Position numbers: made by a program
Virus record (IMG/VR): IMGVR_UViG_2740892231_000003
Length of the DNA: 31,603 nucleotides
Strand: one strand, 5' to 3'
Source of the DNA: a virus
Lineage: Duplodnaviria; Heunggongvirae; Uroviricota; Caudoviricetes
In this document: piece by piece, positions 3,001 through 31,603 of the stretch
Position numbering within the stretch: the stretch's first letter is position 1
How the letters are laid out: each line of letters opens with the position of its first letter

Positions 3001-6000
3001 AGGTGCTGCATGTATCTATAACGATATTATCCCGGCAGATCACTGTCTCCATGATGTGGAGGATATGACAGGGCTTAATCATCCCAAAGCGGATTTATCG
3101 AAAGGTCAGTACGGCTGTGTGGGACAGGGGCTGCATATCGCCAAAAAGCTTCTGCCATTTATACCGGCGAATGCGGGCATTCTTCTTGTTCCGTGCTGCC
3201 GTGGTGGTTCAGCTTTCACCACCGGAACCGATGGCACATACAGTGACACTACTGGCGCCTCAGAGAGTTCCACCCGCTGGGGGGTGGGCAGGCCGCTGTA
3301 TAAGGACCTCATTGGTCGTACAAAAGCCGCGCTGGCGAAGAATCCGAAAAATGTGCTGCTTGCCGTGGTATGGATGCAAGGGGAATTTGATTTTAACGGA
3401 ACGCCAGCGAATCATGCAGCCCGTTTTACAGAAGTGGTGGATCAATACCGTGCGGACCTTGCAGATATGGCGGGGCAGTGTGTGGGTGGCTCAGCTGACA
3501 GTGTTCCCTGGATTTGTGGAGACACAACATATTTCTGGAAGCAGAAGAACGAAACGGCGTACCAGACGGTGTACGGTAGTTACAAAAATAAAACGGAAAA
3601 GAATATCCATTTCGTGCCGTTCATGACCGATGAGAACGGGGTGAATGTGCCGACGAACAAACCGGAAGAAGACCCGGATATTCCGGATATCGGGTATTAC
3701 GGTTCAAAATGGCGAACGGACAGAAGCACCTGGACATCTCAGGACAGGGCCAGTCATTTCAGTTCATGGGCTCGCCGTGGGATTATTTCCGACCGTCTGG
3801 CAACGGCGATTCTGAGCTGCGCGGGTAAGTCTTCTGCGTTTGTTAATGGTACTGCCGGGGTGGTTGTTCCAGACAGACCGGTTACCACCTCAGAGTCTGT
3901 AATTTTTTACGATGCCAAAAAAGCTTCAGACAATCAGCTGAAACCTTATGGCTGGGACGGTATGGATGGCAGACGCACACTGGTTGATGACAGCGGCAAT
4001 AAAGCTCTGCGAATTGAGAAAAATAACAGCGCGAAATCCTGGTCAATGTACTGTGATATTGCTGCAGACAAGGCAAAACTTTTACTGGAAAAAGGCGGGG
4101 AAATTGCTGTCCGGTTTAAAATCCCCGAAAACGTCAATCTTGAGACAACCAGAAACAAGTATGCCTTTGGTTTGTACTGGCGAATAGCGGAATGGCCGGG
4201 TGAGGGTGGTGAAGGCTATCTGAGTTCTTTCTTTGTCCAGACAGATAAAGCCAGTATTGATGTTGCATACCATCATACAGTTAATCAACAAAAAGAACTT
4301 GGCACGTTTGGCGCATTCGACCATGACTGGCATACGCTTGCATTTAAATTTAAGGGCAGTAACAGCATTAATGTTACTCCGGTGCTTGATGGTGTGGATG
4401 GACAGGCGTTTGACCTGGTGAAATGGGCCAATACTGCTAATGGACTCAACAGGTTTGTCATTACGGATATTACAGGTAGTGCAGAAACCTACCCTGTACT
4501 TATTGATACGGTGGAAGTTAAAGCAAACAAAGCTGGAGCAGCCGCATAATTGCTAAAAAAAGCCGCCAGCGGTAGGAATGGAAGCTGGCGGAGGTAATCC
4601 CAATGGAGAATGTAAAGAAAAGATGCTTTCGTACATTGGTTTTTTAAATGAAAACAGTTCTCATTGTCAACCATAACGGTAAGAAATTATGATATTTATT
4701 CATCAGGTGATGCTGTACTTCTGTACGGCGGTCTGTGTGCTGTATCTTCTTTCGGGTGGGTACAGGGCTGTGCGCGATTTCTGGTGCAGGCAGATTGATA
4801 AAAGGGCCGCTGAGAAAATCAGCGCCAGTCAGTCAGCCGGAAGCAAACCCGAAGAGCCCGTTACTCCTTAACAACCCCTTTCAGCGAGAAAATCCCATGT
4901 CAGAAATCACATCCCTGGTCACTGCAGAGGCAGTGAAGGAAGTCCTGCGCTCTGAAGAAGTCCGGAGCGCACTGAAACAGAAACTTCGCCAGAATCTTGA
5001 GGCGCGTCTTGATGCAGAAGTTGATGCCATTCTGGATGAGCTGCTTGGTGTACAGGCAGAGCCACCGACTGAAGCGGGAGATACCACCGCAGAGAGCGGT
5101 GAAGTTCAGCCTGAATCACCGGTCGCCGATGCGACTGAACCTCAACCCGAATCGGTCATGATGCTGTAACGAGGAGTCAGGGCCATCAGTAAACGGCTGC
5201 TGGCCTTTTTCATGTTGTGAGCTTCCGGATTGCGGGAGACGGGGTATGTACCAGATGGAAAAAATCACANNNNNNNNNNGTATCTGCGTTACACCATTAA
5301 CTAATAAATCGAGTGCTTATCAGGAGGCTATGTGAAAAAACTGATGGTGACGATTGGTCCGTTCGAAACAGAAGTTAGTTTTCGTGTTGTTCAGGGGGAG
5401 AGTGTACTTGTTGAAGATGTATTTCATGGAAAATCAACAGGTCCTTATGTAAAAGAATATCTTATCGACGCCACGGATGAAAATATTGAGGTGGTGTACG
5501 ATTCCGTCAATCACCCTGATTTGATCATTAAGGCAAAATTGAAGCCACTTTATTGATCTGACCGGGAGCAATCATAAAATATCTCTGGGTACCCACAAGG
5601 AGATAAATATGTTTGTTTCTGAAGTGTTAATGGAAGATAAGGACAACAAAGGATGGGTTAAAGGTTGGGCTGTGGTAAGAAGCTCGCCCTGGCATCTTGT
5701 TGGGGTTTTTGCGACAGAGGAAGACGCAGAAACGGAAGCAAGAAAGATGGGAGATAAGTACGAGGTTCACTATGGCTCGCATCGAACAGGAAGTGATGAT
5801 TTTGTCTGGGGGGAGTAACAGTCGTTTAACCCCAGAATAATCCCGTAACTGAGGTCGCTATTGGCGGCCTTTTTTGTATCCGCGCCACGCCCGGCGCATA
5901 TCAACCACAGAGCCTTTCGGGGGTGAGCTTACGGAGTGGTCAGTGTGACTTTCTCTGTGGGCAGATCGCTCCCGGGCGTTGGCTCACCCACCCAAAGGAA

Positions 6001-30000: not shown

Positions 30001-31603
30001 TGTAACTTATGGCTTTCTTCAGGTTCACAATGGAAGCCAGTGGGTAACGATTAAAACGCAATAACGTGACTCACACTGGTTGTTGCGTTCCATTATGCCC
30101 AACCGGGCATTAAATACGGAGAATAATATGATTATTAAAAACCTGAAGCACTATACCCCTGAAAAACCTGATGTGCCGGGTGCGATGTACCTGAAATCAG
30201 AGGATGGTCAGGACTGGTATGAGTGTCAGTCGTTATTTTCAGCAGAGACGCTGAAGGTGGTTTATAACAGTGCCGGAGTCATTACCGGCATCAGCAGGGT
30301 GGCGTCAGTTCTGTGGCCAGTGGGCCAGAGTGTGGTGGAGGTGGCGGATACGGAAGAAAACCGCAAAGCTGACATCTCGGGGCGCTGGGGTTTTGACGGG
30401 GAGAAAATCACGGANNNNNNNNNNCGACCCCGGAGCACAGGGTCCGAAAGGTGAAACGGGAGCAACAGGCCCCGCTGGTCCGCGGGGAGCGCAGGGACCG
30501 AAAGGGGAGAAAGGCGACCCCGGTCCCAGAGGTGAGCGTGGAGAAACCGGGCCGATGGGGCCGCCCGGGGCATCAGACGGGAAGAGCCGGGTTGTGGGTA
30601 TCAGGCTGGGTAATAAACAGACTTATGCGCCGCAAACAGACAGCACTACATGGGCAGTGGATTTGGATATTGGTGCAATGATTACGGGGATTGGCGGTTA
30701 CAACGACGGAAACAAAACCCTTATTGACAGGGTATCTTACAGGCCGCTTCAGGTGACATTTGATGGTTCTCAGTGGCGTACAGTCAGCGTGGGTGAGTAT
30801 GTGTCGTCAGGAGCTTCGGGGTTTGAGTATTTTCCATTATAAAGCGCATCATCTTTCAGACATGTAACCGGGAGGACTTACAGATGCACATAAAGAATTT
30901 CAGACAATACACGCCGGAAAATCCGGATGTGCCGGGTGCGATGTACCTGAAATCAGAGGATGGTCAGGACTGGTATGAGTGTCAGTCGTTATTTTCAGCG
31001 GAGACGCTGAAGCTGGTTTATGACAGTAACGGTATAATCACCAGCATAAGTAAGGATGTCTCTATGCTGTGGCCGGTAAACCAGAGTGTGGCAGAGGTTG
31101 CAGATACGGAAGAAAACCGCAAAGCTGACATCTCGGGGCGCTGGGGTTTTGACGGGGAGAAAATCACGGANNNNNNNNNNGACTGCCTTGTTGTGGCCGG
31201 TGAACCAGAGTGTGGCAGAAGTGCCGGATACCCCGGAGAGCCGGAAAATTGACCTGAGCGGGCGCTGGGGCTTTGACGGGGAGAAAATCACGGACCTGCT
31301 GACCGCGGAGAAAGCGCGCGGGATGAAGGGCGATGAAATTAACGCCTGGCGTAATGCGATGGAAGCGGCGAACTACACGTTTGAGCACAATGGGCGTAAA
31401 TGGGACTACGGGAAGTCAACGCAGACGCGTCTTGAGCCGTCGGTGGCTGCAGCGAAAGCGGGGAAACTGCCGGAGGCGTTTTTCTGGACGGATGCGGAAA
31501 ACAATGATGTGCCGGTNNNNNNNNNNGCGGGGAAACTGCCGGAGGCGTTTTTCTGGACGGATGCGGAAAACAATGATGTGGAAGTGACAGCAGAAGAGCT
31601 TAT

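What the first reader, a model, noticed from the sequence alone, without database searches (positions are those of the whole stretch)
5270..31526. Sixteen N10 gaps with duplicated flanks: the window is a chimeric scaffold
N-runs occur at 5270, 7728, 9193, 10146, 12190, 13415, 13503, 13911, 15575, 16246, 28659, 28797, 29204, 30415, 31171 and 31517. In most cases the 30-130 nt before the gap recur just after it or nearby (for example 9121-9192 equals 9213-9284; the holin start at 5246 equals 10122 and 10389; 28729-28796 equals 28861-28928). These are unresolved repeat junctions between near-identical lambdoid prophages. Gene order across gaps, such as HNH and TerS followed directly by R, is not evidence of real adjacency.
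Basis: seen in the sequence. Interest (0 to 1): 0.5.

Follow-up and report, generated by a model that had tools for sequence, protein, structure and literature searches.

The report
Mis-joined draft scaffold of STEC prophages
The window is not one real stretch of DNA but a short-read assembly scaffold in which a genuine Shiga-toxin-1c prophage has been interleaved with pieces of at least two other prophages, so gene order across its gaps cannot be trusted; it is an ordinary assembly artefact.

Summary
The duplicated flanks are real, but two quoted pairs are 4 and 8 nt out of register. Beyond the terminal stretch the copies are 80-98% identical, not equal. The signature is mechanical. Ten segment ends share exactly 68 nt with another segment. 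Segment starts almost never recur. Only 6 of 30,287 69-mers are repeated. This fits contigs from one de Bruijn graph with k=69, joined with minimum-length gaps. S0 (Q, stx1c, esterase, holin start) and S10 (lysozyme to tail fibre) are 99.7-99.9% identical to the Stx1c prophage of STEC1590 and lie 167 bp apart in at least five complete genomes. The 11 kb between them is foreign. Most of it tiles an HK97-type prophage (97-99% to strain N51), with extra lysis-cassette alleles. No complete E. coli genome joins S0 to S1. The S8-S9 order is reversed relative to closed genomes and cuts TerS. Collapsing overlaps restores intact esterase and tail-fibre ORFs. S11-S16 are stacked tail-fibre alleles, one 100% identical to a distant lambda-like prophage.

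The parts
5270..31526 (.). Sixteen runs of exactly 10 N (starts 5270, 7728, 9193, 10146, 12190, 13415, 13503, 13911, 15575, 16246, 28659, 28797, 29204, 30415, 31171, 31517), the scaffold gap markers
1..5269 (+). S0: genuine Stx1c prophage. It holds the 3' end of Q (1-123), stx1cA (631-1578), stx1cB (1589-1858), SASA esterase (about 2639-4549), DUF1378, DUF826 and the first 24 nt of the holin gene (5246-5269). It ends with the same 68-mer as S3.
   Evidence: 99.886% over 5269 nt to STEC1590 / phiSTEC1589-Stx1c; Pfam RIP and SLT_beta; 68-nt suffix
5280..7727 (+). S1: late region of a second, HK97-type lambdoid prophage ('B'). It holds TerB-family (5936-6439), IraM-like (6902-7237, minus strand) and the esterase 5' end (from 7484). 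The join to S0 is false.
   Evidence: 99.5% and 96.7% to N51 locus L003 8001-8625 and 10564-12391; 0/5426 genomes join S0 and S1
7738..9192 (+). S2: esterase body of prophage B. Its first 117 nt are another allele branch. S1's last 68 nt equal 7855-7922.
   Evidence: 98.9% to L003 12289-13661; the collapse restores a 660-aa esterase
9203..10145 (+). S3: esterase 3' end, a variable region (9765-10074, with no match in the fetched loci) and the holin start. S2's last 68 nt equal 9213-9280. S3 ends with the same 68-mer as S0.
10156..12189 (+). S4: lysis cassette of a third prophage ('C'). It holds the DUF826 3' part, holin (10389-10604), lysozyme (10609-11142), a P22_AR_N antirepressor (11413-11862) and the Rz-region start. 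Its last 68 nt equal 12577-12644 in S5.
   Evidence: only 92% to N51 and 84% to the Stx1c phage; best closed-genome match 96%; Pfam
12200..13414 (+). S5: prophage B, from after the lysozyme to Rz (12581-13054) and downstream. Its true successor is S7, not S6.
   Evidence: 98.4% to L003 15667-16880; 13321-13414 is 96.8% identical to 13517-13610
13425..13502 (+). S6: a 78-nt node spanning the holin end and lysozyme start. It is misplaced; it belongs just upstream of S10, and its last 63 nt equal the first 63 nt of S10.
   Evidence: 100% to L004 8314-8391 and L003 14987-15064
13513..13910 (+). S7: prophage B, downstream of Rz. Its last 68 nt equal 13971-14038 in S8.
   Evidence: 98.0% to L003 16783-17174
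13921..15574 (+). S8: prophage B. It holds a TonB-like gene (13963-14304), YlcI/YnfO (minus strand), HNH endonuclease (14678-15043) and a truncated terminase small subunit (15333-15574).
   Evidence: 98.9% to L003 17058-18709; the TerS fragment matches Pfam profile positions 1-57 of 141 only; TerS continues in L003 and L005
15585..16245 (+). S9: a further lysozyme allele (15614-16147), parallel to the first 660 nt of S10 (93%). It fits exactly the hole in prophage B between the holin and S5. Its last 67 nt equal 16849-16915.
   Evidence: 94.2% to L003 15003-15662
16256..28658 (+). S10: genuine continuation of the Stx1c prophage. It holds lysozyme, Rz, packaging genes (18184-20677), portal (20677-22821), N4-gp56-family capsid (24010-25224), adaptor (26727-27377) and the first 428 codons of the tail fibre (from 27374).
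   Evidence: 99.919% to CFIAFB20190167 and 99.726% to STEC1590 over 12403 nt
28669..28796 (+). S11: a 128-nt node interposed between S10 and S12, which abut exactly on the references. Its 3' 73 nt are an alternative tail-fibre allele. Its 5' 48 nt resemble sequence next to a tail assembly gene of a lambda-like prophage.
   Evidence: skipping it gives an open 560-aa tail-fibre ORF
28807..29203 (+). S12: a tail-fibre module, 100% identical to the side tail fibre of a lambda-like (gpJ) prophage about 400 kb from the Stx1c prophage in STEC1590.
   Evidence: 397/397 to L006 6001-6397 vs 97.5% to L004 20723-21119
29214..30414 (+). S13: another tail-fibre allele. It overlaps S12 by 159 nt (96%), and 29819-30148 is unmatched in the fetched loci. 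It shares its 68-nt suffix with S14.
30425..31170 (+). S14: tail-fibre 3' end and DUF4376 5' end, an allele parallel to the second half of S13.
   Evidence: 96.2% to L006 6662-7407; common 68-nt suffix with S13
31181..31603 (+). S15 (31181-31516) and S16 (31527-31603): overlapping DUF4376-gene alleles. S16 is cut by the end of the window.

Best explanation
The window is an artefactual scaffold from a short-read de Bruijn graph assembly (k = 69) of a Shiga-toxin-producing E. coli that carries several lambdoid prophages sharing modules. Where two prophage alleles converge on identical sequence, one contig stops. It ends with the k-1 = 68 nt that it shares with the contig that runs through the node. 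A scaffolder then chained these contigs in one orientation. Wherever the estimated gap was zero or negative, it wrote the minimum gap of 10 N instead of merging, because the overlapping ends are different alleles. The result is a real Stx1c prophage backbone (S0, then about 152 nt of collapsed holin, then S6, S10 and the tail-fibre region). Two things are mixed into it. One is an 11-kb tiling path from the late region of an HK97-type prophage (S1, S2, S3, S9, S5, S7, S8) plus a third lysis cassette (S4). The other is a stack of alternative tail-fibre alleles (S11-S16). What is shown: the gaps, the 68-nt rule, the near-uniqueness of 69-mers, the mapping to closed genomes, the truncated TerS and the restoration of ORFs on collapse. 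What is inferred: paired-end scaffolding as the chaining step, the particular assembler, and a single isolate as the source. My recollection is that the Velvet manual says gaps shorter than 10 bp are written as 10 N, and that Velvet stores nodes without their first k-1 bases. The second point would explain why only segment ends recur, not starts.
For:: there are 16 gaps, all exactly 10 N; the longest exact suffix of a segment that recurs elsewhere is exactly 68 nt for S0, S1, S2, S3, S4, S7, S11, S12, S13 and S14, and 67 nt for S9. All eight 68-nt repeat pairs end flush at a gap. Only one exact repeat is longer (74 nt), and only 6 of 30,287 69-mers occur twice, although paralogues in the window are 86-99% identical; all 17 segments are co-oriented. 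17,672 nt are at least 99% identical to Stx-type prophage loci, 7,648 nt are at least 96% identical to the N51 HK97-type prophage, and the two sets do not overlap. S0 and S10 are 167 bp apart in STEC1590, STEC1589, STEC1585, strain 48 and JNEC-KY171. The last 1 kb of S0 lies the same distance from S10 in 2013C-3033 and CFIAFB20190167; 0 of 5,426 complete genomes have the two sides of the 5270 gap in one place; where S8 and S9 are close together in closed genomes, their order is reversed (lysozyme, Rz, HNH, TerS). TerS is cut at profile position 57 of 141; collapsing the overlaps turns an esterase ORF that stops at codon 577 into a 660-aa ORF with 649/655 identity to the N51 esterase. Joining S10 directly to S12 gives an open 560-aa tail fibre with 553/560 identity, whereas the sequence as written has a stop at codon 434. 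S12 is 100% identical to a different prophage locus of STEC1590; in closed relatives (CFIAFB20190167, JNEC-KY202) the components sit at three or four chromosomal loci hundreds of kb apart. (PMC6602927): Stx prophage structures could not be fully resolved with short reads alone.
Against: A few ends do not obey the 68-nt rule (S9 67 nt, S6 63 nt, S5 44 nt, S15/S16 54 nt), and one 74-nt exact repeat exceeds k-1, so the graph was processed further after construction. The order S4, S5, S6, S7, S8, S9, S10 is not a simple sort by position on either reference, so the scaffolder's logic is not reconstructed. No closed genome matches prophage B or C at 99% or more, so their origin in the same cell is inferred. 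The source record was not found in the three contig collections. I found no citable source for the 10-N convention.
Confidence: 0.9

Rival explanations
1. The artefact is the same, but the alleles come from different cells: a metagenome, virome or mixed culture was co-assembled, and strain variants of related phages were chained into one scaffold.
For: Parallel alleles at 86-98% identity would look the same in a strain mixture. Prophages B and C have no match of 99% or more in any closed genome, so there is no proof that they share a cell with the Stx1c phage.
Against: Single closed STEC genomes already contain every module in several copies. The median is 2 places per genome and the maximum 15-18. 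STEC1590 alone carries both the Stx1c prophage (99.7-99.9% to S0 and S10) and the second locus that is 100% identical to S12. A mixture is not needed. The junction was not found in the metagenome or viral contig collections.
Confidence: 0.07
2. The contigs were ordered and oriented against a reference phage or genome (a reference-guided pseudomolecule) and joined with fixed 10-N spacers, rather than by read pairs.
For: All segments are co-oriented and in roughly phage-map order. The spacer is fixed at 10 N. S11-S16 are almost sorted by their position on the Stx1c prophage.
Against: S5, S7 and S8 are placed before S6, S9 and S10, although they map downstream of them on every reference. S8 (HNH/TerS) has no counterpart at all on a 933W-type reference, so it could not have been placed there by homology to one. 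This rival still makes the window an artefact, so the verdict would not change.
Confidence: 0.1
3. The arrangement is biological: an HK97-type late-region fragment is really inserted in the holin gene of the Stx1c phage, with real short tandem duplications, and the gaps merely mark hard-to-sequence repeats.
For: Lambdoid prophages are mosaic and recombine, and tandem Stx prophages exist (PMC6602927).
Against: No complete genome out of 5,426 has the S0|S1 join. The duplications would break the esterase and tail-fibre genes, which become intact when the duplications are collapsed. TerS is truncated at a gap. Ten duplications of exactly 68 nt, each ending flush at a gap, cannot be biological.
Confidence: 0.01

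Closest known systems
Repeat-induced fragmentation and mis-scaffolding of lambdoid (Stx) prophages in short-read STEC assemblies
   Same: Multiple prophages share lysis-cassette, esterase and tail-fibre modules. Contigs break at the module borders. The structure cannot be recovered from short reads alone (PMC6602927). The gaps are fixed minimum-length N runs.
   Different: Nothing of substance differs. The only special point is how clearly the assembler's k (69) can be read from the 68-nt terminal overlaps.
Escherichia phage phiSTEC1589-Stx1c (PQ600364) and the Stx1c prophage of E. coli STEC1590/STEC1589 (a 933W-type short-tailed Stx phage)
   Same: S0 and S10 are 99.7-99.9% identical to it and colinear with it: Q, stx1cAB, esterase, holin, lysozyme, Rz, packaging genes, portal, N4-gp56-family capsid, adaptor and tail fibre.
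   Different: In the window the two halves are separated by 11 kb of foreign contigs. About 152 nt of the holin gene is missing, and the tail-fibre 3' region is replaced by a stack of alleles.
HK97-type lambdoid prophage of E. coli N51 (NZ_CM165887.1, 2.82-2.85 Mb) and 2013C-3181
   Same: S1, S2, S3, S5, S7 and S8 tile its late region colinearly at 96.7-99.5% identity: TerB, IraM, esterase, Rz, TonB-like, HNH and the TerS start.
   Different: The window lacks a 1.9-kb stretch present in N51 (L003 8626-10563), has a different region between the esterase and the holin (9765-10074), and stops inside TerS. Its lysozyme is represented only by the displaced S9 (94%).

Membership tests
De Bruijn graph short-read scaffold artefact | Gap markers of one fixed, minimum length | tested here: met
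   All 16 gaps are exactly 10 N
De Bruijn graph short-read scaffold artefact | Contig ends share a fixed exact overlap of k-1 with the node they join | tested here: met
   The overlap is exactly 68 nt at 10 segment ends and 67 nt at one more. All eight 68-nt pairs end flush with a gap
De Bruijn graph short-read scaffold artefact | Each k-mer occurs (almost) only once in the assembly, even among close paralogues | tested here: met
   6 of 30,287 69-mers are repeated. The exact-repeat length distribution piles up at 68 nt, with a single 74-nt exception
De Bruijn graph short-read scaffold artefact | Collapsing the overlaps restores intact genes, and genes are truncated at false joins | tested here: met
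   The esterase goes from a stop at codon 577 to a 660-aa ORF (649/655 to N51). The tail fibre is open over 560 aa when S11 is skipped. TerS is cut at profile position 57 of 141
De Bruijn graph short-read scaffold artefact | Closed genomes do not reproduce the order across the gaps | tested here: met
   0/5426 genomes for S0|S1. The S8/S9 order is reversed in closed genomes. S0 and S10 are 167 bp apart in closed genomes
De Bruijn graph short-read scaffold artefact | Read depth is elevated on collapsed repeat contigs, and read pairs are inconsistent with the scaffold order | not testable with these tools
   No reads are available and the source record was not found
Velvet assembly specifically | Gaps shorter than 10 bp are written as 10 N, and nodes are stored without their first k-1 bases, so only the ends recur | not testable with these tools
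   This rests on my recollection of the Velvet manual and data structure. No citable text was found. The asymmetry between ends and starts (13 of 16 ends against 2 of 16 starts) and the odd k are consistent with it
Stx1c-converting 933W-type prophage (backbone S0 + S10) | stx1c A and B subunit genes downstream of Q, with the late and structural genes of the short-tailed Stx phage type | tested here: met
   Pfam RIP and SLT_beta. 99.886% and 99.726% DNA identity to the annotated Stx1c prophage of STEC1590, including stxA1c and stxB1c
Genuine tandem duplication or nested prophage insertion | Duplicated copies coexist on one molecule, the junctions are found in closed genomes, and the genes remain functional or are plausibly disrupted | tested here: not met
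   No closed genome has the joins. The duplications break ORFs that the collapse restores. The fixed 68-nt length is mechanical
Concatenated viral bin (contigs joined in arbitrary order with N spacers) | Random order and orientation of the member contigs | tested here: not met
   All 17 segments are co-oriented, which has a chance of about 2^-16, and they are in roughly map order

The most novel reading that the evidence does not exclude
Some of the joins might be real. The source strain might carry a recombinant Stx1c prophage whose lysis region has acquired part of the late region of an HK97-type prophage (or two prophages in tandem), with the assembler only garbling the repeat borders. That would be an unusual hybrid of a short-tailed Stx phage and an HK97-type phage.
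Probability: 0.01. Interest if true: 0.3.

Novelty: not a real feature. Interest (0 to 1): 0.05.

Why it matters
It matters only as quality control. Any inference from this window that relies on synteny across a gap is invalid. That includes HNH/TerS next to lysozyme, three lysozymes or two holins in 'one phage', a 'split' esterase, a 'truncated' tail fibre, and the apparent phage size. About 12 kb of the 31.6 kb does not belong to the Stx1c phage. The genuine content is a known Stx1c prophage, at least 99.7% identical to published ones. Two points are useful for other windows. The pile-up of exact repeats at a single length, flush with the N runs, is a quick sequence-only test for this kind of artefact, and it reveals the assembler's k.

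Tried and rejected
(1) I tried to identify the source record by scanning for the exact S8-N10-S9 junction in viral contigs, genome contigs and metagenome contigs. All three scans gave 0 hits, although the pattern does match the window itself. (2) I looked for a citable statement of the '10 N minimum gap' rule. Two searches and two papers gave nothing relevant, so the Velvet attribution stays a recollection. (3) I looked for a closed genome holding every segment at 99% or more. None exists in the collection: prophage B peaks at about 97.7%, S4 at 96% and the tail-fibre alleles at about 97%. (4) I tested whether the segment order is a simple sort by position on a reference. It is not, because S5, S7 and S8 precede S6, S9 and S10, so pure reference-guided ordering is unlikely. 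(5) I considered real tandem duplication and rejected it on the ORF-collapse test and the fixed 68-nt length. (6) I considered a concatenated viral bin and rejected it because all the segments are co-oriented. (7) A tRNA scan found none. S1 starts just downstream of where N51 has its tRNA cluster.
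Full report
OBSERVATION. They divide it into 17 segments:
- S0 1-5269
- S1 5280-7727
- S2 7738-9192
- S3 9203-10145
- S4 10156-12189
- S5 12200-13414
- S6 13425-13502
- S7 13513-13910
- S8 13921-15574
- S9 15585-16245
- S10 16256-28658
- S11 28669-28796
- S12 28807-29203
- S13 29214-30414
- S14 30425-31170
- S15 31181-31516
- S16 31527-31603

An all-against-all BLAST of the segments confirms that sequence before most gaps recurs after the gap or nearby. The last 31-mer before the gap recurs exactly for 13 of the 16 gaps. 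Only 5% of random internal 31-mers recur, giving P of about 6e-15.

As written they are 17/72 and 15/68 identical. The true pairs are 9125-9192 = 9213-9280 and 28729-28796 = 28869-28936, both 68/68. The holin-start example is exact. Beyond the terminal exact stretch the flanks are 78-98.6% identical, so they are different alleles rather than one sequence written twice.

A MECHANICAL SIGNATURE. For each segment end I measured the longest exact suffix that recurs anywhere else in the window.
- It is exactly 68 nt for S0, S1, S2, S3, S4, S7, S11, S12, S13 and S14.
- It is 67 nt for S9, 63 nt for S6 and 44 nt for S5.
- S8, S10 and S15 have none.
- Segment starts do not recur at all, except S10 (equal to the end of S6) and S16.

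Of the 73 maximal exact repeat pairs of 20 nt or more in the window, eight are exactly 68 nt, and every one of those ends flush with a gap. Only one pair is longer (74 nt, within S13/S14). Only 6 of 30,287 69-mers occur more than once, even though the window holds paralogues that are 86-99% identical over hundreds of bases.

This is what contigs from a single de Bruijn graph with k = 69 look like. No 69-mer can occur twice, and a contig that runs into a node shared with another path ends with the shared k-1 = 68 nt. S0 and S3 share a 68-nt suffix, the entry to the holin gene. S13 and S14 share another. In the other cases the 68-mer lies 10-593 nt inside the next segment, which therefore begins in a different allele branch and runs through the convergence point.

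From memory, not from a tool: the Velvet manual states that gaps shorter than 10 bp are written as 10 N, and Velvet stores nodes without their first k-1 bases. The second point would explain why only ends recur and not starts. I could not find a citable source. The assembler's identity is therefore an inference. The value of k is close to a direct reading of the sequence.

WHAT THE SEGMENTS ARE: THE BACKBONE. S0 is 99.886% identical over all 5,269 nt to the Stx1c prophage of E. coli STEC1590/STEC1589 (phage record PQ600364). It carries:
- the 3' end of Q
- stx1cA and stx1cB (Pfam RIP and SLT_beta)
- a SASA esterase
- DUF1378 and DUF826
- the first 24 nt of the holin gene

S10 is 99.7-99.9% identical over 12,403 nt to the same prophage type. 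It runs from lysozyme through Rz, packaging genes, portal, N4-gp56-family capsid and adaptor into the tail fibre.

In STEC1590, STEC1589, STEC1585, strain 48 and JNEC-KY171, the end of S0 and the start of S10 are 167 bp apart. That interval is the body of the 216-bp holin gene. The last 1 kb of S0 lies at the same distance from S10 in 2013C-3033 and CFIAFB20190167. So window 5270-16255 (11 kb) is interposed.

THE INTERPOSED BLOCK. S1, S2, S3, S5, S7 and S8 map colinearly, at 96.7-99.5% identity, onto the late region of a different prophage in strain N51 (NZ_CM165887.1). That prophage is an HK97-type phage with HNH, TerS, TerL and an HK97-like head. Consecutive segments overlap by 77-117 bp on that reference.
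- S9 (lysozyme, 94%) fills exactly the hole between the holin and S5 on that reference (L003 15003-15662, with S5 starting at 15667). In the window, however, it is placed after S8.
- S6 (78 nt, the holin end and lysozyme start) is 100% identical to both phages, and its last 63 nt equal the first 63 nt of S10. It sits between S5 and S7, which overlap each other directly.
- S4 is a third lysis cassette (holin, lysozyme, P22_AR_N antirepressor). It is only 92% identical to N51 and 84% to the Stx1c phage, and at best 96% to any complete genome.

Across the window, 17,672 nt are at least 99% identical to Stx-type prophage loci and 7,648 nt are at least 96% identical to the N51 prophage. The two sets do not overlap. 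All 17 segments are co-oriented.

(a) S0|S1. A 2-kb query centred on the gap at 5270 finds 2,299 genomes with a match, but none of the 5,426 complete genomes has both halves in one place.
(b) S8|S9. 97 genomes hold both halves within 2.6-2.9 kb, but in the opposite order. In RM12761, S9 maps to locus positions 3001-3660 and the end of S8 to 4764-5856. The natural order is lysozyme, Rz, HNH, TerS, and TerS continues to 6178. In the window the TerS ORF stops at the gap, covering Pfam profile positions 1-57 of 141.
(c) Overlap collapse. Read as written, the esterase ORF from 7484 stops at codon 577. Removing the duplicated flanks (7484-7727 + 7923-9192 + 9281 onward) gives a 660-aa ORF that matches 649 of the 655 residues of the N51 esterase. 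The tail fibre from 27374 has a stop at codon 434, inside S11, when read as written. Joining S10 directly to S12, which abut to the base on both references, gives an open 560-aa frame with 553/560 identity to the STEC1590 tail fibre.

THE 3' END. S11-S16 (2.9 kb) compress onto about 1.65 kb of the tail-fibre and DUF4376 genes in closed genomes. They are stacked alleles.
- S12 is 397/397 identical to the side tail fibre of a lambda-like gpJ prophage about 400 kb from the Stx1c prophage in STEC1590, and only 97.5% identical to the Stx1c phage's own gene.
- S13 and S14 are parallel over their last 266 nt.
- S14/S15 and S15/S16 overlap.

GAP-BY-GAP VERDICT.
- False joins: 5270, 13415, 13503, 15575 and 28659.
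- Parallel alleles written in series: 16246, 28797 and 30415.
- Allele switches with overlap: 10146, 12190, 29204, 31171 and 31517.
- Consecutive segments of one prophage that merely overlap: 7728, 9193 and 13911. These are consistent with real adjacency once the overlap is collapsed.

EXPLANATION. This is a short-read de Bruijn graph assembly (k = 69) of a Shiga-toxin-producing E. coli with several module-sharing prophages, followed by scaffolding that wrote 10 N wherever the estimated gap was zero or negative. A single isolate is sufficient. Closed STEC genomes hold these modules in a median of 2 and up to 15-18 places. In CFIAFB20190167 and JNEC-KY202 the components lie at three or four loci hundreds of kb apart. 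STEC1590 alone carries both the Stx1c prophage and the second locus that is identical to S12.

A strain mixture or reference-guided ordering cannot be fully excluded, but either would still make the window an artefact. A biological reading is essentially excluded by the fixed 68-nt length, the ORF-collapse test and the closed genomes. It is already documented that Stx prophage structure cannot be resolved from short reads alone (PMC6602927).

VERDICT. The feature is an assembly artefact, not biology, and the genuine content is a known Stx1c prophage. Interest is low. Its value is as a warning against reading synteny across these gaps.

Noticed in passing
window 622-1858: There is a complete Shiga toxin 1c operon, with stx1cA at 631-1578 (Pfam RIP) and stx1cB at 1589-1858 (Pfam SLT_beta). 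It lies about 500 nt downstream of the 3' end of the Q antiterminator gene, which is where the window starts. It is 99.9% identical to the annotated stxA1c/stxB1c region of STEC1590. So the source is an Stx1c-positive STEC.
   Followed up: yes
window 28807-29203 (S12); L006 6001-6397: A 397-nt tail-fibre module is 100% identical to the side tail fibre of a long-tailed lambda-like (gpJ) prophage in STEC1590, and 97.5% identical to the tail fibre of the short-tailed Stx1c phage in the same genome. Receptor-binding modules are therefore shared between prophages of different tail morphotypes within one chromosome.
   Followed up: partly
window 5855-5904; L003 8576-8625 and 10564-10613: S1 lacks a 1.9-kb stretch that N51 has (a hypothetical gene and a helix-turn-helix gene). 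The same 50 nt of the window aligns to both edges of the missing stretch in N51. That suggests a deletion or cassette exchange between 50-nt direct repeats.
   Followed up: no
window 9765-10074, 11237-11997, 29819-30148, 7738-7819: These stretches have no BLAST match (E <= 1e-6) in any of the six fetched reference loci. They are the region between the esterase and the holin in S3, the antirepressor insert in S4, the middle of tail-fibre allele S13, and the first 82 nt of S2. They appear to be variable modules of prophages not represented among the fetched references.
   Followed up: no
window 30170-30243 and 30926-30999: This is the only exact repeat longer than 68 nt (74 nt, within the parallel alleles S13 and S14). 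It is an exception to the k = 69 uniqueness rule and may reflect duplication of a node during repeat resolution.
   Followed up: no
window 28669-28723 (5' part of S11): The first 48 nt of the 128-nt segment S11 resemble (96%) sequence just downstream of a tail assembly gene of the lambda-like prophage (L006 675-724), and the rest is a tail-fibre allele. S11 may be a real junction from yet another prophage, or it may be a chimeric graph node.
   Followed up: no
window 5936-7237: The late region of the HK97-type prophage carries cargo genes between Q/tRNA and the esterase: a TerB-family gene (5936-6439, Pfam TerB) and, on the minus strand, a homologue of the anti-adapter IraM (6902-7237, named from the N51 annotation).
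   Followed up: partly
window, whole: ARAGORN finds no tRNA gene. In N51 a cluster of three tRNAs (Ile, Arg, Arg) ends 38 nt before the point where S1 begins, so the contig break at the start of S1 coincides with the edge of that tRNA cluster.
   Followed up: partly
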